In this document: one piece after another, positions 4,500-57,768 of the stretch
Numbering within the stretch: position 1 is the first letter of the stretch
Layout: every line of letters starts with the position of its first letter
Made by a program: the position numbers and the translations under genes
Source of the DNA: Hypanus sabinus
Taxonomy: Eukaryota
Direction of reading: 5' to 3'
Length of the DNA stretch: 64,000 nucleotides
Assembly: GCF_030144855.1 (NCBI RefSeq)
Contig: NC_082728.1
Span: forward strand, 32,860,001 to 32,924,000
The notes under the pieces: model-generated
What the model saw: the letters and a program-made list of their open reading frames with translations, nothing else
Databases searched by the model: none
What the model was told of the DNA's origin: nothing

Positions 4500-6210
4500 T
4501 AACCCCACAAATGGTATAATGATTAGACCATTTTCCCAATGCTGGACCTGGAACTATGCCTACCTTTTCATCAGCTGCTTGGAACAGTCTATACTCCAAG
4601 CCTACACTGGTATTGCTTCCCAACACTTTCTGCACCACATTAACAACTTGGAGCTGCATCATCAATTTCTTCAACTTTATCCCCAGCTTCAACTCTGCTC
4701 TTAAATTTACTTGGTGTATTGCTGACGCTCTCTCTCCTTTCTCAATCTCTCTGGAAGCACATTATCTGCTAATTTAACTTATAAAGCTATTGAGTCTCAC
4801 AGCTATCTTGTGTATCCCTTTTTTCAACCAGTCACTTGTAAAAATACTATTCCCTTTTCCAAATACCCTTAACCCTGCTCCCTCTTCTCAGGATAAGGCT
4901 TTCCATTCCAGAACATCTGAGATTTCCTCCTCTTTCAAAGAATGGGGTTTCATTTCCTCAACAATTGATGCTGCCTTTATCCGTATCTCCTCTATTTCCT
5001 GGACATACCCTCTCGCCTAATCCTTACCTATAATCCCATGAGTCTCCGCATCCAAAACATCATTCTCTTTAACATCTGCCATCTTCACTAAGCATGTCTT
5101 TCTCTACCTGCCCCCATTCTGTTTTCAGTAGGGTGCAGATTTTGCTCTCTAGGTGACTCCATTGTCCACTCATCCTTCTCCAGGCACTTATCCCTGCAAG
5201 TGGCAGAAGTTCTACACCTGCCCCTTCACTTCCTCCGTCACCAACATTCAGGGCCCCAAACAGTCCGTCCAGGTGAGACAACACTTCATCATAATTGTCT
5301 GGATTCATCTGCTGTATCTGGTGTTCCTGGTGCCGCCTCTTCTACATCTATGAGGCCTGTGTAGATTGGTGCTCTGTTTAATTGAATACCCTTGCTTCAC
5401 CCACCACAACAGGTGGGATTTCCCATTGGCCATAGATCTAAATTCTACTTCCTATTCCCATTCCAACATATCAGTCCATGACCTCCTCTACATTGACAAT
5501 GAGGCCACAGTCAGGTTGGAAGAGCAGCTCCTCATATTCCATCTGGGTAGCCTCCAACCTGATGATGAGAACACCATTTCTCTAACCTGCTAATTTCTTC
5601 CCCCTCCTCCTTCTCTCTTATTCTATTCCCATTCTGGCTCTCTCTTACCCCTTCTTTTCTCATCCCTTGCTTAACACCCCTCTCTTGTGCCCCTGCTTCT
5701 TCCCTTTCTCCCTTGGATCTCTCCTATGAAATTCCTTCTTTTTCAGCCCTTTACTTTTTCTCCCTATCACCTGCCAGCTTCACATCTCATTCCCCTCACC
5801 TGGCTTCACCTATCACCTGGCAGCTTCACACTTTAGTCCCCCTCACCTGGCTTCACCTATCACCTGGCAGCTTCACACTTTAGTCCCCCTCACCTGGCTT
5901 CACCTATCACCTGCCAGCTTCACACTTTAGTCCCCCTCACCTGGCTTCACCTATCACCTGGCAGCTTCACACCTCATTCCCCCTCATCTTTCTTCACCTA
6001 TCACCTGGCAGCTTCACACCTCATCCCCCCCTCACCTGGCTTCACCTATCACCTGCCAGCTTCTGCTCCCTCTCCTCCACCTAATTCTGACCTCTTACCC
6101 TTTTCTTTCCAGTCCTGATAAAGAGTCTCAGTCCACAATTATGATGTTTATTCCCCTCCATTGATGCTGCCTGACCTATGGAGATCCTCTGGTAATTTTT
6201 GTGTTTTGCT
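4500..6210 (+). mobile_element. Penelope-like element remnant (RT C-terminus, GIY-YIG region, pyrimidine-rich 3' part)
   Basis: ORF 5366-5593 (LNSTSYSHSNISVHDLLY...EATVRLEEQLLIFHLGSLQPD) is homologous to the copy at 25647-26066; same terminal repeat at about 6110-6210. Confidence 0.8.
5764..6065 (+). repeat. Minisatellite, about 47-bp unit, about 6 copies, inside the Penelope-like 3' region
   Basis: Unit cacctggcttcacctatcacctggcagcttcacactttagtccccct; cagcttcaca recurs at 5821 and 5868. Confidence 0.9.
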
Positions 6211-41814: not shown

Positions 41815-42188
41815 TGTTACACGGGGTGACAGAGGAGAATCCAAGTGCAGGACACCGGCATGTCCACTCAGTTGGGGAGGCTGGCGTAGACCAGAACGTA
41901 GAAGAGGAAACCAGAGCGATCTTGACAAGGAGACGGGATTCACAGGGACTATCTAGAAACTAGAGCAGAACTTGGAACTAACTGTTCCAAACGGAACAGG
42001 AAACAAAGTATCACACGAAAATTAACCAACGAACTGGCAACCTGTGATAGAGTCGTCCTCGTATTTATTCCCAGTCTCTGATGAAAGCCAGGTGTATGAT
42101 TACTGGGTAACTAGCAGCAATTGACTGAAATTGGGGCATGATCAGGGAGAAGAGTGTTAAAGGGAAACGGCCAACGGGAACCATGACA
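41815..42188 (-). repeat. Gypsy 3' LTR (374 bp)
   Basis: Direct repeat of 57405-57768, about 10-15% diverged by eye; preceded on minus by a G-rich PPT. Confidence 0.93.
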
Positions 42189-44090
42189 ATACCCCCCTCC
42201 CCCCAATGGGAGCCTACCAGCATTCCTCCAGGCCTGTCCGGATGGTCCTGATGGAAGTCCTGAATGAGGAAAGGGTCTAGGATAAAGGAGCGGGGGACCC
42301 AGGAACGTTCTTCAGGACCGTACCCCTCCCAGTCCACCAGGTATTGGAGGCCCCTGCCCCGACGGCACACATCTAACAGTCGTCGGACAGTGTATGCCGG
42401 ATGGTTGGCGACGAGCCGGGCAGGGGGAGGAGTCTCAACTGGGGGACACAAAGGGCTGACGAAGACTGGTTTTATCTGGAACACATGAAAGGTTGGGTAA
42501 ATACGCATGGACTTGTGCAGCGTGAGGAGAACCGTTGTGTGGTTGATAATCCTTTCGATCTTGAGTGGTCCCAGGAAGTGGGGGGCGGGTTTCCTAAGTA
42601 CTAGGGCGTATTTGAGCGGGCTGTCCTTGGCGGAAAGCCACATCATCCGCCCCGGTTGGTACTCTGGTACTGGAGTCCGGTGTCGGTCGGCCGTTTTTGT
42701 CGATCTGAGTAGGGCCGTGCGGGTCTCCTCCCAAACCTTCCGGCACCGATCAACATGGTCCCGAACCGACGGTACCGCGATCTCTTCTACCTGACCGGGG
42801 AACAGCAAGGGAACACTCGAACAGGGACCTCCCAATGGTAGAGTTCACCAGGGAGTTGTGGGAGTATTCAATCCAGGGAGATGGTCGCTCCAGGTTGACG
42901 GGTGGTTTGCTGTTACGCAGCGTAACGTTGCCTCCAGGTCCTGGTTAACCCGTTCCGTCTGCCCGTTTGTCTGGGGGTGGAAGCCGGATGACAGTCTGGC
43001 CGTTGCTCCTGGGGCTCGACATACCTGCGAGATGAACTGGGGACCCCGATCGGAGAGGATGTCCGCGGGGATTCCGTGGAGGCGGGAGATGTGATGGACT
43101 AGAAGATCTGCCGTTTCTTGCAAGGGTGGGAGTTTAGGGAGGGCCACAAAATGCACCGCCTTGGAGAATCGGTCTACCATGGTGAGGACAGTTGTGTTTC
43201 CGCGGGAAGGGGATAGACCGGTGACGAAGTCTAGAGCGACGTGGGACCAGGGACGACCAGGTACAGGTAGGGAACGGAGTAATCCCGCAGGTAGCCGATG
43301 GGAGGCTTTTCCACGGGCGCAGACGGAACATGGGAAACATAGGAACGGGTGTCAGGGTCCATGGAGGGCCACCAGAAATGCCTCTTCAGGAGGGTCAGGG
43401 TCCGATCGATTCCGGGATGGCAGGCGAAGCGAGAATTGTGCCCCCACTGTAGGACCTGTGATCGAACAGCATGGGGTACAAAGAGGAGATTGCGAGGTCC
43501 GGTGCCTGGGTAGGGATGCGTCCTTTGGGCCCCTGACTTTGGACCCGATCTCCCAGGTGAGGGCAACCACTACACAGAAATCCGGAAGAATGGTTTCGGA
43601 GTTGGGAAGATCCTCCTCAGAAACGTATTGGCGGGAGAGGGCATCGGGCTTCCCGTTCTTGGACCCCGGACGATAGGTGAGGGAGAACCTGAACCGGCCA
43701 AAAAATAATGCCCAACGGGCCTGGCGGGAATTCAGGCGTTTGGCGGTCTGGATATATTCATGGTTCTTGTGGTCTGTCCAGACGATAAATGGGTGTTCTG
43801 CCCCCCTCCAACCAATGCCTCCACTCTTCCAACGCCAGTTTGACCGCTAGTAGCTCCCGGTTCCCCACGTCGTAGTTTCGTTCGGGGAGAGAAGGCGGCA
43901 CGGGGATGTAGTCTCTGATCCGGGCCCGAACGTTGGGACAGTACCGCTCCCACCCCGGAGGCAGAGGCGTCAAACTCCACAATGAACTGACAGGAGGGGT
44001 TCGGTTGAATCAGAACAGGGGCAGACGTGAAACGCTTCTTCAGTTCGGCGAATGCGGAGTCCGCCCCGGAGTTCCAAAGGAAAGGGGTAG
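42065..44090 (-). pseudogene. Gypsy pol C-terminal part: RNase H, integrase, chromodomain (frameshifted)
   Basis: [13 protein letters not shown] (RH); [11 protein letters not shown] and VDRFSK...SDRGPQF...[10 protein letters not shown] (IN); YTVRRLLD...[17 protein letters not shown] (chromodomain, about 42250-42396). Confidence 0.92.
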
Positions 44091-44439
44091 TATTGGAGTT
44101 TAAAAATATTATGTAGTATAAAACTTGTATCATTTGCTGTGTAACTAGTCAGTTTGCTATGTATGTACTCAATTTAGTAGAATGAAATCTTAGGAATGTA
44201 AAAGACAAATGGTGTGTTAATGGAAGGTAGCTGAAGAGATGTAGATTAGAACTGTACATGTGGTACGTGTGAAACTAGACCAGGATTTTGCTATAAAAAA
44301 TGCCGTGTCCGAGGATCGGTGGGCAATCAGCGACTAGCTCAATGACTGTCTCAGCTTTGATTTGCAAATTAAAGTTTAACCCTTCTTGAAGAATCTTCTG
44401 CGTCTCTTGGTCATTTGTGAGGCACGAAAAACCACGACA
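44091..44439 (+). repeat. ERV 5' LTR (349 bp)
   Basis: Ends ...cacgaCA before the PBS; TATAAA near 44292, ATTAAA near 44368; about 5% diverged from the 3' LTR by eye. Confidence 0.92.
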
Positions 44440-44443
44440 TAAT

Positions 44444-44461
44444 TGGCGACCGCGGCAGGAC
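44444..44461 (+). other. ERV primer-binding site, tRNA-Arg(UCG)
   Basis: TGGCGACCGCGGCAGGAC is the reverse complement of the vertebrate tRNA-Arg(UCG) 3' end (...GTCCTGCCGCGGTCG-CCA), recalled from memory. Confidence 0.85.
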
Positions 44462-44739
44462 CGGATAGAGACCCGCGGAAATGAAACGGCAGACTGGGGG
44501 CACTTCCCAGTCCTCTAGGGACCCCCACAAGGCTAACAGAATTAAGGGTGCACCCAAACAAAAAGTAAGCGCTTTTTGCGACAATTTGGACTAAGAATTC
44601 TGTTGGTTTTGGGGAGGTCTTGGAGTCTCAGAAGTGTGGAACCACTGCCGAAGGGTCTCTCCGGTCCAAAGAATCTGGCAGAATTGGGGGTTAACAGAGG
44701 AGGCTCAGAGGATTGATCAAGAACACTGCAGTGAAGGTA

Positions 44740-45235
44740 AGTACAAAAAAGTTAATAAGAAGTTAAGAAAAAGTCCACGTGGTGTTGGTCAATCCCTGTG
44801 GGTACCGCTTCGTATGAAACGAAGGGCTGAACGGGCAGGGAAAGTAGAATAGAAAATCCTCGTGGATACCGCCTTAAGAGATAAAGGTCTGAACGGCCGA
44901 GGTGTTTAGAGTAGAAAATCCTCGTGGACACCTCCTTAAGAGATAAGGGTCTGAACGGGCGAGGTGCAAAGAGCAAGTTCTGTAGGTACCGCTCTGATTA
45001 GAGGTCTGCACGGGCAGGACAGAATAGGAAACAAGTTCAGTCCAATATATAGTTAAAAGCGCTGGTAGATAGACAATAGACTAGGCATAGAATTAGAGTA
45101 AGTTAAGAAAAAGTCCACATGGTGTGTAGAATTAGAGTGAATTTAGTGAAGAAAAAGTCCACGTGGTGTGTAGAATTAGAGTGAATTTAGTGAAGAAAAA
45201 GTCCACGTGGTGTTAGACTAGGCGTAGAATTAGAG
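44740..45235 (+). repeat. Tandem repeats in the ERV leader (44-bp unit, about 3 copies; about 63-bp unit, 2 copies)
   Basis: gtccac recurs at 45113, 45157 and 45201; agaaaatcctcgtgga...ggtctgaacgg is duplicated at about 44850 and 44914. Confidence 0.85.
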
Positions 45236-45298
45236 TAAGTAATATTATCCAGTAAACAAACTGTGAATCTCTGAAATACCTTAAAAAGATAAAATAAC

Positions 45299-47442
45299 AT
45301 GACAGGTAAAGGAACGGCAGTAGAGATTCTGAGCAAAAAAATTCCCGTTAATTAATAATGAGATCACAAAAGCTTCAGAAAAATGGGGAAAAAAGAATCA
45401 ATAACCTGGTCACAAAGTGGCCAAGAGAAGGAACGTTTGATGTAAGTTTGTGCGAAGAAATGGAGGGACTAATTAAAAATTACAAACCAAAAGATAAATC
45501 TAAGAAAAGAGAGCAAAAAAGAGAAAGAGAAATGGAAGTGCTAAAACTCCAGAACGGAGGGGGAAAGGCTGAGGAGGACAGGTAGAATATTGATTACAAG
45601 CGAGGAAGACACTAAGGTGCCGGAGAAACAGCCTGTTAAAGAGAGAGAAGGGTGCGGTGAGAAGCTGGCTTCGGCTCCGTACCCGAATGCGAAAGAAACA
45701 GAAAAACCCCCTCCCTATAATGAGGAAGGAACCCCTAAGCAGTGCCCCCTGCTGACAGGGACAGTGACCATGCAGGGAGAAGTCCAAGTTTGGGATAATG
45801 AGGAGGAGAAAAAACAATACGAGAAGGAAAAAGCGGCGATATGGAAGGAGATACAGGCAGAAAAGATTAAGATAGAACAGGTACAGAGAGAAATGGGAGA
45901 AGAGATTGAACGGATGAAATACTTAAAAGAGGAAAAGGAGTATGAGGAGTATTGGTTATACTATAGAAATAAACAGACTAGAAGAGAAGGTGACTCATTG
46001 GAGGAGCAAGAGTTAAGTGGAGAGAGAGAGGATGTGAGAATTTGTGGGGAAGAGATAGGAGGCAGTAGGGGAGCGACTTGTGGAAGTAGAGAGAGAGCTA
46101 GATAAGTTACTGAGAGTGGATTGCCAGATGTGAAAAATACTCCAGGGGCCAACCAAGTATTGAATCAGGACAGAAAGGAAGGACTCCACAGGGAGACCGA
46201 GGGAAGAAGAGAACCCCGGAGACATTTGTGTGGGAGGCAGTAAAGACAAACCCTGAGACAGATGGGGAGTCAGGTGAGGAGAAGAGCCAGGGCAGTTGGG
46301 AAGAAGGAGGAAGAATGATGCCATTGTTAGTAAAAGGATCAGGACAAGTGCAGTATATCCCTCGGGGATCCCAGGACCTAGAAGGGCTGAAAAACACTCT
46401 GCCGGATCTACATGAAGGAGCAGGGAAATGGATTAGAGCCTTTGAAGAAGAAACAGCGGGACGATTATTGGCTATGGGAGATTTGAAGGCACTGTTGATA
46501 AGGTTGATGGGAACCTCCAAATTTAACGAACTAATGGAAATGGCTGGCATAGTAAACTCAAACGACCCGAGAACCGATGGAGACAGGTTTGGCAGAGTGA
46601 GGCAGAGGGTATGGCAGGCCCTCAGAAAGTTTTATCCACCCAAAGTGGACCCCAAAGCCTTAAAAGGGGATCCACTGGGAGACACTGAAAACCCAGCAGC
46701 CTACGTAGAAAACCAGTTGAAAAGGTGGAGACTGGAGACTGAGCAAGAGGTGGAGAATAGCTTATTTATGACCTCACTGTTCCGACATAGCATTTTGGAT
46801 GCAATGCCTTCACAAGTAAAATCCAAACTGGAGGAAGTGGTTGGGCTAACGTCAAAGACCCCACAAGAATTTAGAGACCACGTAGTCCATGCGGTTGAGA
46901 AATACCGAAAAGACAAACGAAGGTTGGCTGAGCAGCAGGAAGAGGTGCAAAGAAAGTTAATACAAATGCAGCTTGAAGAACTCAAAAAGAAGGAAAAAGA
47001 GAAAAGCAAAAAGATGCTGCCAGCAACCACTGGTCCGAGTACAGCCATTGAACCGGACAAAGCACTGCTATATGGGGGAACTGATCATACTGTAAGACAA
47101 GGGCTGGAAAACCCCATGCCAATAATCGTCTTTGGCGGAGCATTCCCACAAATGCCCTATCAGGAACAGACTAAATTCAAACAGCCCAGACAGGACTGGA
47201 AGTCCCAAGGAGGGGGACAGAGGAGCTATGGGCAGAGAGAACCAGTGAGGAAACAGGGGGAAAGAGAAGTAGAGAGATTGTGCTGGGAATGTAATCAGCC
47301 AGGTCACATGAAAAGAGATTGTCCGTTTATACTATGGCCTGTCACACACCAGCAGGAACCGATAAGAAGGGAACTAAAGTTTAGCCAAGGACCAGCCCCC
47401 ACAGGCCCAAGCGGACCTGTGAACCCCTATGCGAGGTATTAG
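45299..47442 (+). pseudogene. gag: ERV gag (broken 5' part; 46228-47442 open CA-NC)
   Basis: KWPREGTFD matrix-like motif; zinc knuckle CWECNQPGHMKRDC; ends in TAG at 47440-47442. Confidence 0.9.
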
Positions 47443-50400
47443 GGGTGCCCCGAGAACTTGAGTGGGAAGGGACATTACTCAATGATAACAAGGGAGGCAG
47501 ATGAGGAACCCATTGTTCAGGTTATGTTAGAAGGACAACTGACACCAATGATGATAGATACTGGAGCCACGTACACTTGCGTACAGCCACAGTATGCCCT
47601 TCACCTTCCCATGTCAAGAAAGTTTATTAAGACGGTATGGTCTCGGGGAAAACACAGTTGACACAGTGCACGGCTCCACTGCGGTTGAGAATGGGAAATA
47701 AAATTGTTTTGCCGGTGCTAGTATTTAAAGGAACTCCAATTAATTTGTTAGGCAGAGATGCCTTATTGAATTGGAATTAAAATTAGAATGCACCAGAAAT
47801 GGGCTGAGTGTGGGAAGAGCAGGGGCTCAATTGATAGTGCGAGAAGACAAGAAGGCTAATGTCTTTTGGATAGGAGACATCGCAGATCAGATTCAGGAAT
47901 CCTGGGAAAAATGGAAAAAGGGCGTGCAGGTTATATTACCCAGGGCTGTAATGCCCAAATCTGAGCTACATTGTACAGTGATCGTTGACGAGACTCAGAA
48001 CGGGGAGTTAGAGGAGAAATGGCACCTAGAGGCGTGTACCCAGCAGCGCCTGGAAGGGGAGGCTGTGATAATTGGAAAGCAAGGGGCAGCTTTACAAGTT
48101 ACATGGAACACCTTTTTAGAAAAATGGTACAGGATACCGGAGGCTGCGCCCCACGTAACGTTGTTGGTAAACATGGGATATCAGTCTAAAGACTTAGGAC
48201 CCTTAGTTAAGAGTGCTGAAACCGCAACAGTGTGGAGGAAAATCACGCCAGAGGTGTGGATATCAGAAGACAACAATTGTATTAAAATAATGGTAAGTGT
48301 AGATATGGTAGGGACAGTGAGAGAGGTCGAAATAACTCCCCAACCACACCTGCCCTTGCTGGGAAAGGAAAGAGGCCAGCAGAAAGATAAAAGGTTAGAT
48401 GAGTTGCCATCTATTCTCTGGCCACAGCATGACACGGACGTAGGGAGTCCGGTGGAAGTAAGGCTGAAAAGGGGAGCAATTCCACCCCGGAGACCACAAT
48501 ACCCTCTAAGACCAGAAGCAGAAGAGGGAATAGCATCGACAGTGCAGGGGTTGCTTGAAATAGGAGTGCTTAAAAGAAGCACTCCATGCAATAAGAAGTC
48601 CATGCAATACCCCGTTGCTGCTGGTTTTAAAAGCAGATAAATCTAAGTGGAGATTGGTGCATGATTTGCGAGCGGTAAATGATGTGGTAGAGGACTGGCC
48701 AGCGGTAGTCCCCAACCCACACACGCTTTTGACTAATGTTCCACCAGGAGCAAGTTACTTTTCAGTGATTGATTTGTGTTCGGCTTTCTTCAGCATTCCT
48801 GTAGCCCACCAGTGTCAGTATTTGTTTGCATTTACTTACAGAGGTGCTCAGTATACCTATACCAGAATGCCGCAAGGATTTAAACATTCACCACACGTTT
48901 TTAATCAGGTATTGAAGGCAGACCTGGAGGGTATGCCATTGGAAAGTACATTGTTACAGTATGTTGATGACCTGTTGATTTGCTCCCACAGTAAGGAACA
49001 GTGTGAGCAGGACACTATAACTCTGTTAGAGAAGCTAGCGCACGGAGGACATAAAGTATCCAGAAAGAAACTGCAATTTTGCACACAGCAAGTGGAATAC
49101 TTAGGCAGGGTAATATCCAAGGGAGTGAAGGCGATAGCACCAGATCAGATTGAGGCAATAACTAAGGCCGCCAAACCCCAGACTGTAGGGCAGATGATGA
49201 CGTTTTTGGGAATGGCAGGGTACAGCTCAGATTGGATAGGAGAATATGCCGAGATTGTGGCACCTTTAAGAAAGATAATGAAAGAAGCAGGACATACAAA
49301 TTTGAAGAATGGCTTACAGTGGGATGGAGAGGCAGAGACAGCTTTCAATACTAAGCAGGAATTGCAGTCAGAACCAGCATTAGCTTTGCCTGACTACGAG
49401 AAGGTTTTTTATTTGTATGTATCCAACCGACAGGAGGGTTATGTTACAGCAGTTCTAACACAAGAGACAGGCACAGGAAAAGCAAAGCAGCCGATAGCAT
49501 ACTACATACAGTACGAGACTAGATGAGGTGGCTCAGGGGTATCCACCCTGTTATCAGGGATTGGCGTCGCTGTACTATGCATATGAAAAGGCATCATCTG
49601 TAACCCTGGGCTATCCTGTGACTCTGTACACACACCACAAAGTAGCAGAATTACTGGAAAGAGGGAAATTTGTGTTAACGCCAGCTAGGATAGCAGTGTA
49701 TCAGATGCTATTGACATTTCCAGATATAACTATACAGAGATGCACTACCAGTAATATAGCCGATTTTGTCCCTTTGGGCTATGAAGGAGAACCCCATGAT
49801 TGTGTAGGGAAGACGATGGCATTTGCCAAATTAAGAGCAGATTTACGATCAGAACCAGTAGAGGATGCAGATAAAAAGGTTCTGTTCGTAGATGGCTCTT
49901 GTTATAGGGATTATGATGGAAATCACGCAGGGTTCTCAGTCGTGCAGCAGGATCAGTCGAGCTATAAGATTATTAGGATGGAGTCCTGTCCCCAACCGTG
50001 TTCCGCCCAACTAGCGGAAATCAAAGCCCTGATAGCTGCGTGTGAAATGATGGAAGGTGAGAAAGTAGACATCAAAACTGATTCGGCATATGCTCATAAA
50101 GTATGCCATTTGTTCGGGGCAGTGTGGAAGCAGAGAGGTTTTAAAAAAAAGTAGCGGAGATCCCATACAACATTGTCCGCAAATTCTAGACTTAATAAAA
50201 GCCATAATGAAACCTAAAGCATTGACTATAGTAAAATGCCAGGCACATTAAAAGGGAAACGATGTAATAACAAAGGGAAATCAAGCTGTGGACGAGGCAG
50301 CCAGAAAAGCGTCTGTGTGTACGTCAGCTGTCATTGCCCCCCAGGTAAGCCTAACTCCAAAACCTGAGGTAAAGGACCTGATTGAAATACAAGGTAAGGC

Positions 50401-50890
50401 AACTTTGGCAGAACAGACAATGTGGAGAAAAAGGGGGGGCAAGCAGAACCCGGAAGGCTTGTGGAGCACGGAAGATGGTTTGTTGGTAGTGCCCACCCCT
50501 CTACTGACGATTCTGATTTCAGAAGCGCATGGGATGGACCATTGTGCAAGGGAGGGAAGTGATAAAGAAAATAAAGAAGGATGGTTTTTGGTCACCTTAT
50601 TTACAGGCTTCAGTGGACTTTTTCTTGTCACAGTGTGAGGTATGCGCACAGAATAATGTTCGAAAGGGAATTACAACCCCAATAGGCCACATTCCTGTAC
50701 CTGAAGGACCATTTAAACATCTAGTGGTCGATTACGTAGACATGATAAAGACAGTGAGAGGGAAAAGATACATGCTGGTAGTAATTGATCGATTTAGCAG
50801 ATGGGTGGAGGCGGTACCTTCAAAAGATCAAGGGGCAAAGACGGTGGTAAGATTTCTGACAAATGAAGTTTGGAATACCTACAGAAGTTA
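47443..50890 (+). pseudogene. pol: ERV pro-pol: protease, 2H-phosphoesterase-like domain, RT, RNase H, integrase N-half (frameshifted)
   Basis: MIDTGATYT and NLLGRD (PR); LHCT...PHVTL (2H); LPQG-like MPQGFKHSP and YVDD (RT); FVDGS...AQLAE...TDS (RH); HHCC and DRFSRWVE (IN). Confidence 0.93.
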
Positions 50891-50898
50891 GCTTAAAC

Positions 50899-53587
50899 AA
50901 ACTATAATGTGTTGCATTTATGAAATCGATGAACTCCTGCAGAGAAAACGAATTACATTTCTGCATGCAACAAAAACATTTTGAACTCCGAAAAAAAGAC
51001 GGGTTGAAGTTTACTTTTAAGTAAAATAATCAATGTCTATTTGAGTCCTTCTTGTATTTATGAAAAACACTGAACCTACATTGTCCACCAGCAGCAAACC
51101 AAAAATAACGACAGCCAGCTGTCAACCTGAAAAATAAAAGGACTATTTCACTGAACAATGAAAAAATATGAATATATGTAAAATAATAGGCAATTAAAAT
51201 ATTTATCATACTTGGTTAATGGGATTTCTGCTCCTGAACCTCAGCGCACAGCGTCTGCACATCAGGGCTGTATGACGTCACCTTCATCTTTACACAGGAT
51301 CGCAAGCTGTCATCTGTGAGGCATGCGCGATGTTTGTTTTTAATACAGTTCATGTTGGAGAACACCTGCTCATACACATATGTTGATCCAAAGATCGACA
51401 GGACGCCAAGCGCATACTTTTTAATGTTTACATAAATGTCGGGGATAGCATTCCATGTTTCGAACACAAGTTTGTCCGGTTTGTGGAGGTTTTCAATATC
51501 ACTCCATTTGTGATTCTGAGCAAGAACGGCCTTCTGACGGGCAACATCTTCAAGGTCTGCTGTCAAGCGTCTAAACTTGGACACCCATATGACTTTGAAG
51601 GCTATGTCGGCCAGTTCCATCTCAAGATCAGGTTGACTCACACCTGCCAATGCAGTCGTATTCAGTGGGATGGATTGATGCTTAGGGGAGTGACCGGGAA
51701 GGATAATGTGCTTTTTACCTCTCTGAACTCACAGAAGCATTTCCCAAATGATGTTTGCATTGCGATGATTGCAGAATGTAAATACCCCGAATTTATCATG
51801 TCGTGAGCTTGTTTGAACTCTCTCAAATTGGGGAAGTGAGACAATGTGCCTTTCTGTAAATCTCTGGCAAGCACTGTCAACTTGTGCTGGAATGCCAAAA
51901 CATCCTCCAACATGTGCAGGGCTGTGCATCCTTTCCCCTGAAGAGCTGTGTTCAGTGTGTTCAGGTGCGCTGTCATGTCTACCATGAAGTGTAGCTTTTA
52001 CAGGCACCTCTGGCTGTTCCAGCTCAGGAAAGGTGAGACCTTTACTGCCCAGGAAAGTTTTCACTTCTTCCAGACACACGACAAAGCGTTTCAGCACCTC
52101 CCCTCTTGACAGCCACCGGATTTTGTTGTGCAGCAGGAGATCAGAATATGCGCTTTCCAGCTCGTCCAGTAACAAACGGAATTGACGGTGATTTAAACTT
52201 CTTGCCATTATTTTATTGACAATCTGAATGACAAGATCCATTACTTCCGTGCATTCCGTAGGAAATGTTTGAGCGCACAGTGCCTCTTGGTGCAAGATGC
52301 AGTGAAAAGTCAGCAGCTTTCTGTCCAGCGACTTCTGCAGTAAAGCCACAAATCCCTTGTGCGCTCCTGTCATACTTGGTGCCCCATCAGTAGCTACTGA
52401 CACCAGGTGGGTGGTCTTTATTACTTTGGCTCTTAAACAATTCAAGACAGCCTCACAGATGTCCTCCCCCCGTGTCTGGCCTTTTAGAGGTATCAACTCA
52501 ATCATTTCTTCCTGTGGCCCGGCAGAGTTTACATACCAGTGGAACAGCGCTAATTGTTCAATATCACCTTTGTCTTTAGACTCGTTACAGGCAACCGAGT
52601 AGGCCACAGCTGAATTGATGTCTTTAATTTACTGTCTTCTGATGTCTTCTGCCATTTTTATGGTTCTGTCTTTGACAGTCTTTGCAGAGAGGGGCATATC
52701 CCTGATTTTCTGCACTATTTCACTTTTGTTTTTAAAGTCCGTGAATAGATGTTCTGAAATCTTAATGTAAGATTCTTTTATATATTCACCGTCTGTAAAC
52801 TGCTTCCCGTGCCTGACTATTTCCTGAGCGGCAACAAAACTAGCATATGTCATTGATTTTCCAGACATCATCCACTTCTTGAAATGATTTTTGCTCTGAT
52901 CAACCTTCCGCATCAGTTCCGAAACGGTTTTTCTTCTCTCATCTCCATCCGGATATTTTTGAGCAAAGGCTGCGTGTTTATTCTGGAAATGTCTTGCGAC
53001 TTTTGACTTTTTGTTGTTTGCTAGTTTCTCATTGCATATTAAGCATACCGGTAAACCAGTCTCGTCAGCAGTGAAAGCAAATGAATCTGCCCACGTATCA
53101 TTAAATGTTCTGTTTTCTTCAGTCACTTTTCTTTTTTTTTAAGAATTCTCCATAGTTAGCCTACCTTGGATCGAAAAATTAAAGAAATCATGCACTGGCG
53201 GGTGTCAGGCATTGGCCGTGGTGACGTATATTAATAGCGACAAAAAACACGTTTTATTTAGATTGTACAAGATCACCATAATCTTCATATTTAGAATTAC
53301 ATTTCAAAAACTAACAAACAAACATAAAATACATTTTAATTAAATACTCATCATTTATTTTCCAAAGCCATAGGGAGCCGCAGCACAGAGATGAAAGAAT
53401 CGGATGCGGCTCCGGAGCCGCGGGTTGCCGACCCCTGGTTTATACATAGCATAAAGGCAAAAAAAAACGTTGTATGCAGTGTTATTTCATTTTAAATGTC
53501 AAACGGGTTTTGTGGCTCCCTGTGTTTTCTTTTCTGTGAGAGACGGGTCCAAATGGCTCTTTCAGTGGTAAAGGTTGCCAACCCCTG
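50899..53587 (-). mobile_element. hAT Buster/SPIN-type (GTF2IRD2-like) transposon inserted in ERV integrase, internally inverted
   Basis: Transposase fragments 53126->51216 (BED-like CLIC...RHFQNKH, ATDGAPSM, HCILHQE, RWLSRG, FGSTYVYEQVFS); 8-bp flanks gcttaaac/gcttagac; TIR-type sequences end at 53437 and 53587. Confidence 0.92.
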
Positions 53588-53850
53588 GCTTAGACAATGG
53601 TTCAGCTTTTATCCAGAAAGTGGTCAAACTGGTACTACAGGCGCTGAGGACAAAGCAAAGATTTGGATGTGTATACCACCCTCAGTCGCAGGGCATGGTA
53701 GAGAGAATTAATGGAACCCTGAAAGCCAAACTAAACAAAATTTGTGCAGACACTAAACTTAATTGGGTCGATGCTTTAGCGTTAGCATTGATGAGTTACC
53801 ACATGCAAACTAATCGAATGACATGCCTGACACCGCATGAGATTGCTGCA
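53588..53850 (+). pseudogene. ERV integrase core, C-half
   Basis: DNGSAF...HPQSQGMVERINGTLK; continues FGIPTEVS from before the hAT insertion. Confidence 0.9.
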
Positions 53851-54435
53851 GGCTGGAAAGCTGTCATACCTGTGATAGGGGTAAGCAAAAATGTTTAATG
53901 GATAAACTACATATACTATAATCAACAGAGATTCATCAACTACACCGATGATGCACTGGAGGCCTTAGGGCAACAGCTAGATGCAACTAGCAGGATGGCG
54001 TGGCAAAACAGACAGGTACTGGATTGGCTTTTGGCAGGAAAAGGGTGTGTGTGTGTAATGTTTGGAGAACAATGCTGCACTTTCATACCGAACAATACTA
54101 GCCCAGAAAGGTCTTTCACCAGAGCAATGAATAAATTAAAGAATCTGCGGACCGAGGTCAAACAGAATGCAGGGTTCGGACATCAGTTTTTTGATTGGTT
54201 AGAAAGTAGACTCAGAGGATGGGGAGCATGGCTGACTAAAATGGCAATAACTGTCAGTATTGTAATGTTGAGCTGTGCGTTTGTGCTGTGCTGTTTTCTT
54301 CCTTGTCTCAAATCTCTTATAGTGCGTGCTGCAACCAAACAATTTCTGATGCTCGTGGCAATTACCGAAGCAAGCTTAGTGAAGAAAGAAACACCGAAAA
54401 TGTTATCGTTACAGCCTAAAACACCTGCAGGATGA
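53851..54435 (+). pseudogene. env: ERV env TM remnant (SU deleted)
   Basis: WINYIYYNQQRF; ISD-like QNRQVLDWLLAGKG; CX6CC (CVMFGEQCC); membrane anchor MAITVSIVMLSCAFVLCCFL. Confidence 0.9.
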
Positions 54436-54699
54436 ACAAGAGCAAAACGACAGTGTGGGAGTAGATTGTAAGGGCTTATGAGTCTTTTTCCCTGTCTCAG
54501 GTACAAAGGGACAGGTTTTTTTGGCTCAGCGGCCCAGGGTAACAGGGAGAGAATACTTTTGAGGACTTGGCGCAGAAAATTATAGTTTAACCTGAGATTT
54601 GGGAATAAATGTTTGAGTTTATTGAGGCTTTTGTGCGCGGACTCTTAGCCTTCTTTCTCTGTGTGAGACCCTCTGGGTTTCAAAGGGCGTTTATATATA

Positions 54700-55163
54700 T
54701 TTTGGAATATAAAAATATTATGGAGTATAAAACTTGTATCATTTGCTGTGTAACTAGTCAGTTTGCTATGTATGTACTCAATTTAGTAGAATGAAATCTT
54801 AAGAATGTAGAAGACAAATGGTGTGTTAATATATGGTAATGAGAGGTAGCAGGGAGATGTAGTCAGCTTTGAAACTTGCTATTTGCTATGCATGTACCCA
54901 ATTTAGCAAGAGAACGAAATCTGAGGAATGTAAAAGACAATGGTGTGTTAATGGAAGGTAGCTAAAGAGATGTAGATTAGAACTGTACATGTGGTACATG
55001 TGAAACTAGACCAGGATTTTGCTATAAAAAATGTCGCGTCCGAGGATCGGTGGGCAATCAGCGACTAGTTCAATGACTGCCTCAGCTTTGATTTGCAAAT
55101 TAAAGTTCAACCAAGAATCTGCTGCGTCTCCTGGTCATTTGTGAGGCACGAAAAACCATGACA
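54700..55163 (+). repeat. ERV 3' LTR (about 464 bp, with about 115-bp U3 duplication)
   Basis: Homologous to 44091-44439; ends catgaCA followed by TSD gtag; start degenerate. Confidence 0.88.
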
Positions 55164-57388
<2,225 letters not shown>

Positions 57389-57390
57389 TC

Positions 57391-57404
57391 TGGCTAGTTC
57401 GTTC
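57391..57404 (-). other. Non-tRNA (self-priming) primer-binding site of the Gypsy element
   Basis: GAACGAACTAGCCA directly after the 5' LTR, no TGG start; complementary to LTR-internal GCTAGTTTGTT (57615-57605). Confidence 0.75.
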
Positions 57405-57768
57405 TGTTACACGGGGGCAACAGAGGAGAACCCAAGTGCAGGACACTGGCACGTCAACTCATTTGGGGAGGCTGGTGTAGACCTGAACATAGAGCAGGAA
57501 ACCAGAGGAATCTTGACAAGGAGACGGGATTCACATGGACTCTCTAGAAACTAGAGCAGAACTTAGAACTACTGGTTCTAATCAGAACAAGGAAGAAAGT
57601 ATCCAACAAACTAGCAACCTGTGATAGAGTCGTCCTTGTATTTATTTACCAGTCTCTGTTGAAAGCCAGGTGTACGATTATTGGGTAACTAGCAGCAATT
57701 GACTGAAATTGGGGCATGATCAGGGAGAAAGAAATGTTAAGAGGGAACTGCCAACCAGAACCATTACA
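57405..57768 (-). repeat. Gypsy 5' LTR (364 bp)
   Basis: Direct repeat of 41815-42188; TATA-like AATAAATAC at 57646-57638 on minus. Confidence 0.93.

What the first reader, a model, noticed from the sequence alone, without database searches (positions are those of the whole stretch)
47860..48300. 2H-phosphoesterase-like domain between protease and RT in a cartilaginous-fish ERV
Seen: an insert of roughly 200 aa between PR and RT contains LHCT (His codon 47969) and PHVTL (His codon 48152), 61 residues apart, with both motifs intact and in one open frame. Established: paired HxT/S motifs define the 2H superfamily (LigT, AKAP7, coronavirus NS2, rotavirus VP3-CTD); NS2 and VP3 cleave 2-5A and block OAS-RNase L; 2H domains have been noted in piscine epsilonretrovirus Pol. 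Inference: this ERV lineage may carry an innate-immunity antagonist or an RNA end-processing enzyme; its activity is unknown to me.
Basis: partly seen in the sequence, partly recalled or inferred. Interest (0 to 1): 0.75.

Follow-up and report, generated by a model that had tools for sequence, protein, structure and literature searches.

The report
CNPase-like enzyme in ray retrovirus Pol
A broken endogenous retrovirus in what is likely a stingray genome carries, between its protease and reverse transcriptase, a conserved two-histidine domain that is predicted to fold like the myelin enzyme CNPase and likely opens cyclic-phosphate RNA ends rather than destroying the immune messenger 2-5A; such domains were already reported in fish retroviruses.

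Summary
Observation confirmed. LHCT (His 47969) and PHVT (His 48152) lie 61 codons apart in one frame, between protease and RT of a decayed class I ERV. They are among the most conserved residues in relatives. The predicted structure (pLDDT 94) is a 2H fold closest to vertebrate CNPase (Z 15.8, against 8.3 for MHV NS2 and 7.9 for rotavirus VP3). It also matches walleye retrovirus polyproteins.

The domain is known: reviews cite 2H/CNPase domains in fish retroviruses, and this scan noted it three times on other genomes.

Both motifs are intact in 29 of 32 named ray-finned-fish proteins, and that lineage lost OAS and RNase L. Best reading: a Pol-borne 2',3'-cyclic phosphodiesterase that opens cyclic-phosphate RNA ends in the particle. 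Genomic copies decay neutrally; differences shared between copies show only modest purifying selection. My searches found no test of its activity. Verdict: new member of a known kind, with a testable substrate question.

The parts
44091..44439 (+). 5' LTR; preceded by the target-site duplication GTAG (44087-44090)
44444..44461 (+). primer-binding site, complementary to the 3' end of a host tRNA-Arg(TCG)
45545..47442 (+). gag, broken into at least two frames (45545-46105, 46114-47442); zf-CCHC near the end; ends in TAG directly before the protease
47443..47800 (+). retroviral protease (DTG, Asp codon at 47557), frameshifted in its second half; end approximate
47855..48334 (+). 2H phosphoesterase domain, CNPase-like (model residues 13-172 of 47819-48355)
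47966..47977 (+). first H-x-T motif (LHCT), aligned to CNPase His230/Thr232
48149..48163 (+). second H-x-T motif (PHVTL), aligned to CNPase His309/Thr311
48185..48223 (+). predicted helix 123-135 with conserved Gly127, 15 residues after the second His; inferred equivalent of CNPase helix alpha7
48395..50154 (+). reverse transcriptase and RNase H, in three frames (to 48640; 48564-49526; 49498-50154); start approximate; closest solved RTs are gammaretroviral
50252..53840 (+). integrase, frameshifted and interrupted by a DNA-transposon remnant on the minus strand (ORFs 51216-53138; ends not fixed)
53899..54435 (+). env remnant (TM part, Pfam TLV_coat); most of env is missing
54700..55163 (+). 3' LTR (start approximate; about 120 nt longer than the 5' LTR), followed by GTAG (55164-55167); LTR divergence K2P 0.049 over 342 gap-free columns

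Best explanation
The stretch is a conserved two-histidine (2H) domain of a fish-type retroviral Pol, predicted to fold like CNPase, and it likely acted as a 2',3'-cyclic-nucleotide 3'-phosphodiesterase that would be packaged with reverse transcriptase and would open cyclic-phosphate RNA ends to a free 3'-OH. Shown: its place between protease and RT, both motifs, their conservation, and retention across the ERV family. Predicted: the CNPase-type fold. Inferred: (1) it was made by read-through of the gag stop and so entered particles with RT; (2) the two His/Thr motifs act as in CNPase, giving 2'-phosphate, 3'-OH products; (3) the useful substrates were nuclease-cut RNA ends in the particle or early in infection, such as damaged primer tRNA, so it supported reverse transcription much as an accessory dUTPase does in other retroviruses (analogy recalled). 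Odds: CNPase-type chemistry about 0.65; the RNA-end-healing role specifically about 0.35. This genomic copy is dead.
For: AF2 model: pLDDT 94.1, pTM 0.87. All 41 rows shown by Foldseek in PDB are CNPase or goldfish RICH, best E 1.4e-6. VIA-align over 48,161 chains: CNPase 2xmi Z 15.8, rmsd 4.1, 165 aligned; next 9.7; MHV NS2 8.3, rotavirus VP3 7.9 and 7.2, Acb1 7.8, AKAP18 7.6, poxvirus cGAMP PDE 6.6. Profile-profile match to vertebrate CNPases: probability 93.5, E 2e-7, both motifs in register; reversed-profile control 0.10. Gly at second His+15 is in 97 of 102 relatives and in CNPase, inside a predicted helix where CNPase has alpha7, which PMC4643303 calls unique to CNPase and possibly tied to its stereospecificity. 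The position matching base-stacking Phe235 is aromatic in 82 of 102 relatives and in 27 of 30 sibling copies. Both motifs are intact in 29 of 32 named ray-finned-fish proteins from 20 genera. Of 27 copies picked by RT, 26 carry the domain and 20 keep both motifs; shared differences give omega 0.43-0.50. Yeast and lancelet tRNA-healing CPDases are CNPase homologues (PMC5434554).
Against: No activity has been measured. Identity to CNPase is only 12-16% and rmsd is 4-5 A; viral 2H enzymes change substrate readily (PMC11410667). The sequence alignment to CNPase stops at Gly127, so the alpha7 match rests on spacing and the model. CNPase Arg307 and Val321 have no like residue at the aligned positions. 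The Phe235-equivalent position is not aromatic in this copy or its two duplicates. Selection within the family is weak: the 95% interval for shared differences reaches 0.93-1.06, against 0.10-0.11 for the RT thumb. No profile comparison with AKAP7 or NS2 families was run. It is not known whether RT can extend a 2'-phosphate, 3'-OH end, and most retroviruses lack this domain (recalled). The host has about seven tandem OAS genes.
Confidence: 0.6

Rival explanations
1. Same CNPase chemistry, immune purpose: the particle-borne enzyme destroys 2',3'-cGMP or cyclic-phosphate RNA fragments made when virions are degraded in endosomes, and so blunts TLR7 sensing.
For: PMC11470960 passages show 2',3'-cGMP is the potent pocket-1 ligand of TLR7, with 3'-GMP far weaker. 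A 2',3'-cNMP is the textbook CNPase substrate. TLR7 in fish and its role against retroviruses are recalled, not checked.
Against: No direct evidence. The enzyme would be scarce, enclosed in the core and exposed to lysosomal proteases. Whether 2'-GMP is inactive on TLR7 was not seen in the passages read.
Confidence: 0.12
2. A cGAMP-degrading enzyme that counters cGAS-STING sensing of reverse-transcribed DNA, like avian poxvirus PDEs and phage Acb1.
For: LigT-like viral PDEs degrade cGAMP (PMC11410667). Pol delivery would put it beside the new DNA (inference). Acb1 Z 7.8 and penguinpox PDE Z 6.6.
Against: These matches are about half the CNPase Z. Helix alpha7 is thought to limit substrate size. 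That paper has no occurrence of 'retrovir', 'CNP' or 'walleye' in its main text.
Confidence: 0.11
3. A 2',5'-phosphodiesterase that cleaves 2-5A and blocks OAS-RNase L, like coronavirus NS2 and rotavirus VP3.
For: Shared 2H fold (Z 7.2-8.3). The host has an OAS cluster, and cartilaginous fish have a working OAS-RNase L pair in a yeast assay (PMC10400998).
Against: The fold is much nearer CNPase. The motifs are intact in 29 of 32 named ray-finned-fish proteins, although that lineage lost both OAS and RNase L. The walleye viruses carry the domain too.
Confidence: 0.07
4. An ADP-ribose 1'',2''-cyclic phosphate (Appr>p) phosphodiesterase that works in NAD/ADP-ribose conflicts, or a binder acting as a decoy for host CNP, which blocks lentivirus assembly through Gag.
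For: 2H enzymes process Appr>p (PMC9503650). Some fish ERVs also carry macro domains (PMC4977317). Host CNP binds MA and inhibits particle formation.
Against: Plant Appr>p CPDase scores Z 7.5. No macro domain was found in the ORFs scanned. Strict conservation of the catalytic His/Thr argues for catalysis over a pure decoy.
Confidence: 0.1

Closest known systems
2H/CNPase domain of piscine retroviruses (WDSV, WEHV-1; epsilon-like ERVs of ray-finned fish; Mazumder 2002 and Basta 2009, both seen only as cited in PMC9503650 and PMC4977317)
   Same: [quoted passage not shown] Named teleost ERV Pols have the same motifs, 61-63 residues apart, between PR and RT where those are present.
   Different: Host is a cartilaginous fish. 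Primer is tRNA-Arg(TCG), not tRNA-His as in the walleye viruses. The family is very large in this genome (1,005 candidates, 150 scored, 88-100% identical). The tool labels the two walleye entries 'Envelope polyprotein' and gives no ranges, so the domain's place in them was not checked.
Vertebrate CNPase catalytic domain (PDB 2xmi; goldfish RICH 2i3e; Pfam PF05881)
   Same: Best fold match; both H-x-T motifs, the Gly at His+15 and, in the family, an aromatic at the Phe235 position.
   Different: 12-16% identity; shorter (61 against 79 residues between the histidines); no N-terminal PNK-like domain; no Pfam CNPase hit for this copy; no Arg307 or Val321 equivalent.
Viral 2',5'-phosphodiesterases (MHV NS2, rotavirus VP3-CTD) and AKAP7/AKAP18
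   Same: 2H fold and paired H-x-T/S motifs.
   Different: Z 7.2-8.3 against 15.8; 112-140 aligned residues against 165; host range of the retroviral domain does not follow OAS-RNase L.
cGAMP phosphodiesterases (phage Acb1, avian poxvirus PDE)
   Same: Viral 2H enzymes; Z 7.8 and 6.6.
   Different: Stand-alone proteins of DNA viruses; much weaker fold match.

Membership tests
2H phosphoesterase superfamily | two conserved H-x-T/S-hydrophobic motifs | tested here: met
   definition in PMC5434554
2H phosphoesterase superfamily | two-lobed 2H fold | tested here: met
   predicted model only; the 21 chains with Z >= 5 are known 2H proteins or fit the fold (names partly recalled)
2H phosphoesterase superfamily | phosphoesterase activity | not testable with these tools
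   needs an enzyme assay
piscine-retrovirus Pol 2H domain | homology to the domain in WDSV/WEHV and teleost ERV Pols | tested here: met
piscine-retrovirus Pol 2H domain | in frame between protease and RT | tested here: met
   order holds in this copy, with frameshifts; a teleost PR-2H-RT protein matches sibling copies over residues 11-464 without stops in many of the 91 rows
class I (gamma/epsilon-like) ERV | gag-TAG-pro junction, RT nearest gammaretroviral RT, gamma-type env TM, LTRs with PBS and TSD | tested here: met
   (E 2e-45 gammaretroviral against 1e-25 foamy)
epsilon-like clade in the strict sense | RT tree placement with WDSV/WEHV/SSSV | not tested
   no named exogenous sequences were in hand for a tree
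CNPase family | helix alpha7 and beta5-alpha7 loop after the second motif | tested here: inconclusive
   predicted helix 123-135 and conserved Gly at the same spacing, but no residue-level structural alignment seen
CNPase family | N-terminal PNK-like domain; Pfam PF05881 over cut-off | tested here: not met
   domain follows the protease; no Pfam hit for this copy, 1 of 79 aligned relatives hits PF05881 at E 0.011. It is CNPase-like, not filed as a CNPase
CNPase family | 2',3'-cNMP hydrolysed to 2'-NMP | not testable with these tools
   needs an enzyme assay
viral 2',5'-PDE (NS2/VP3/AKAP7 group) | nearest fold neighbours are NS2, VP3 or AKAP7 | tested here: not met
   Z 8.3 (rmsd 3.8, 127 aligned), 7.9 (3.2, 112), 7.6 (5.0, 140) against CNPase 15.8 (4.1, 165)
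viral 2',5'-PDE (NS2/VP3/AKAP7 group) | cleaves 2-5A | not testable with these tools
   needs an enzyme assay

The most novel reading that the evidence does not exclude
Fish retroviruses captured a vertebrate CNPase catalytic domain and carry it in Pol as an immune antagonist that destroys 2',3'-cGMP, the natural TLR7 ligand (or cGAMP). It would be a retroviral enzyme against nucleotide-based innate sensing, kept across cartilaginous and ray-finned fish hosts.
Probability: 0.15. Interest if true: 0.8.

Novelty: new member of a known kind. Interest (0 to 1): 0.33.

Why it matters
The domain has been in print for years, but my ten literature searches found no test of its function and no report from a cartilaginous fish. 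This work narrows the question. The fold points to CNPase chemistry, and the host range argues against 2-5A. A five-substrate assay on isolated natural domains would tell whether retroviruses use an RNA-end-healing enzyme or an anti-immune nucleotide hydrolase. A minimal viral homologue could also hint at the physiological substrate of vertebrate CNPase, which the abstract of PMC3290555 (search listing) calls unknown. The copy in this window is an ordinary dead member of a very large family.

Tried and rejected
Single-sequence searches missed the domain: Pfam, PDB sequences and a search among longer proteins (0 of 277 candidates). The profile of alignment A1 gave only weak CNPase/RICH hits (E 0.04-1.9), and Pfam hit 2H families weakly in a few of 79 members. 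The ESM Atlas gave no answer.

The first dN/dS run (0.26 for the domain) was set aside: those 30 copies were picked by likeness to the domain and no transition correction was made. One search replaces it. It dropped 3 of 30 loci as duplicates and used the 25 of 27 with over 85% codon coverage.

RNase L in the host: the PF06479 search gave 2 matches among 17 candidates. One is IRE1 by PDB search and the other resembles it. This is inconclusive, not an absence.

Expression: contigs of three runs only guessed to be RNA cover the stretch, and one recorded RNA run covers 6 of 30 bins. No silent control stretch was laid, so transcription is not shown.

No fungal Trl1 or lancelet CPDase appears among the fold hits, so a vertebrate-CNP origin is inferred only. 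AKAP7-family exons were found in the host but were too short to use. No terminal repeats of the DNA transposon were fixed. Domestication of this copy was rejected: gag, pro, pol and env are all broken and singleton differences are neutral (omega 1.06-1.23).

Mazumder 2002 and Basta 2009 were not held; they may already hold more on origin and host range. No supplements were read; those of PMC10400998 may list ray species for OAS and RNase L.

Full report
Observation. Pfam places a zinc knuckle, protease, RT, RNase H, integrase and an env TM remnant around this frame, and finds nothing in the domain itself. Such a motif pair arose in 60 of 20,000 shuffles of the ORF.

The element. It is a provirus from about 44091 to 55163. 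It has two LTRs (K2P 0.049 over 342 gap-free columns), a 4-bp target-site duplication and a primer-binding site matching a host tRNA-Arg(TCG). Gag ends in TAG directly before the protease, and the closest solved RTs are gammaretroviral (E 2e-45, against 1e-25 for foamy virus), so it is a class I ERV. It is dead: gag, protease, RT/RNase H and integrase are frameshifted, a DNA transposon interrupts the integrase, and most of env is gone. Named relatives point to a stingray-like host.

Family. A search of the genome with the domain gave 1,005 candidates; the 150 scored are 88-100% identical. To avoid picking copies by the domain itself, I took the 30 best RT matches and dropped 3 duplicates. Of the 27 left, 26 carry the domain and 20 keep both motifs. 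Among the 25 with over 85% coverage, 10 have frameshifts and 4 have stops in it. Pairwise dN/dS with transition and CpG weighting is 1.06-1.23 for singleton differences, which is neutral decay after insertion. It is 0.43-0.50 for shared differences, with intervals reaching 0.93-1.06; the RT thumb gives 0.10-0.11. So selection during spread in this host is likely but weak. A teleost PR-2H-RT protein aligns to sibling copies in one frame over residues 11-464, so the domain is part of Pol.

Relatives. phmmer against 1.84 billion representatives gave 164 hits, 150 listed. In the 105 that cover at least 60% of the domain, the two His, the Thr/Ser, Pro111, Leu115 and Gly127 are the most conserved positions. 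I looked up 20 hits by name and found 34 longer Pols with the profile. All named ones are from ray-finned fish except one ray protein. Of 32 named ray-finned-fish proteins checked, 29 from 20 genera have both motifs 61-63 residues apart. One had no domain hit and two lacked a full pair, as did the ray protein.

Fold. AlphaFold2 with a 79-sequence alignment gave pLDDT 94.1 and pTM 0.87. Foldseek's significant PDB rows are all CNPase or goldfish RICH. VIA-align over 48,161 chains ranks CNPase first (Z 15.8, rmsd 4.1, 165 aligned), well above other 2H proteins: 9.7, 9.4, 8.7, MHV NS2 8.3, Usb1 8.2, rotavirus VP3 7.9, Acb1 7.8, AKAP18 7.6. In predicted viral structures the top three are Q2VF30 and the WEHV-1 and WDSV polyproteins (E 1e-12 to 3e-8). 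A profile-profile comparison with 71 vertebrate CNPases aligns both motifs (probability 93.5; reversed control 0.10) and puts Gly127 on the CNPase Gly 15 residues after the second His. The model has a helix at 123-135, where CNPase has alpha7; passages of PMC4643303 call that helix unique to CNPase and possibly decisive for stereospecificity. The Phe235-equivalent position is aromatic in 82 of 102 relatives and 27 of 30 sibling copies, but not in this copy or its two duplicates. Arg307 and Val321 have no like residue; a basic residue sits at the latter position in 93 of 105.

Mechanism. The place in Pol implies low-level synthesis by read-through and packaging with RT (inference from class I retrovirus biology). 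CNPase turns 2',3'-cyclic phosphates into 2'-phosphate, 3'-OH products and is homologous to tRNA-healing enzymes (passages of PMC5434554). I therefore favour a cyclic phosphodiesterase that opens nuclease-cut RNA ends, such as damaged primer tRNA: about 0.65 for the chemistry, about 0.35 for that role. The 2-5A reading is unlikely. Passages of PMC10400998 say OAS and RNase L were lost in the ancestor of ray-finned fish, yet the motifs are intact there. Against my reading, cartilaginous fish keep the pathway and this genome has about seven OAS genes; RNase L was neither found nor excluded. cGAMP cleavage has viral precedent (passages of PMC11410667). Destruction of 2',3'-cGMP, the TLR7 ligand (passages of PMC11470960), fits CNPase chemistry and is the boldest open reading.

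What is known. Passages of PMC9503650 state that 2H domains occur in fish retroviruses and WDSV, citing Mazumder 2002. Passages of PMC4977317 state that epsilon-like ERVs of ray-finned fish can encode a CNPase, citing Basta 2009. Neither original was held. Host CNP inhibits lentivirus assembly (passages). I also read the first 10,000 of 14,366 characters of PMC4422223 and passages of PMC6001957, PMC6307210, PMC2852836, PMC8672886 and PMC3185748; none of what I saw mentions the domain. Ten searches found no functional test and no report from a cartilaginous fish; the library lacks most subscription papers. A look-up of earlier scan notes by sequence found nothing. One by words found three notes on other genomes with the same CNPase-like reading; they came after my own reading and are not independent support.

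Verdict. The feature is real and belongs to a known kind. This is a new member in a cartilaginous-fish ERV family, with a sharper and testable prediction of substrate. Interest 0.33.

Noticed in passing
G000:C42, L002/L003 and L072/L073: This provirus and its flanks recur twice more on the same contig, about 85 kb apart, 97.4-97.9% identical over the 10 kb fetched: a segmental triplication rather than new insertions.
   Followed up: partly
window 41823-44090 and 55164-57729: The ERV sits inside a minus-strand Gypsy-like LTR retrotransposon (label from reading the ORFs, not from a family scan), whose long repeats flank it.
   Followed up: partly
window about 50.9-53.6 kb: A DNA-transposon remnant with a Spin-doc zinc finger interrupts the integrase; its ends were not fixed.
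   Followed up: partly
G000:C31:79.65-79.86 Mb (L031-L034, L036): About seven tandem OAS genes, several near-identical in score, while the RNase L search returned only IRE1-like exons.
   Followed up: partly
window 44440-44461: The primer-binding site starts 4 nt after the LTR end and matches tRNA-Arg(TCG); walleye retroviruses use tRNA-His.
   Followed up: yes
window 54830-54950: The 3' LTR has about 120 nt, resembling a repeat of the adjacent LTR segment, that the 5' LTR lacks.
   Followed up: no
window 53840-53899: The integrase tail runs almost straight into the env TM part; most of env is missing.
   Followed up: no
window 5745-6088: Tandem array of a 47-nt unit, about 7 copies.
   Followed up: no
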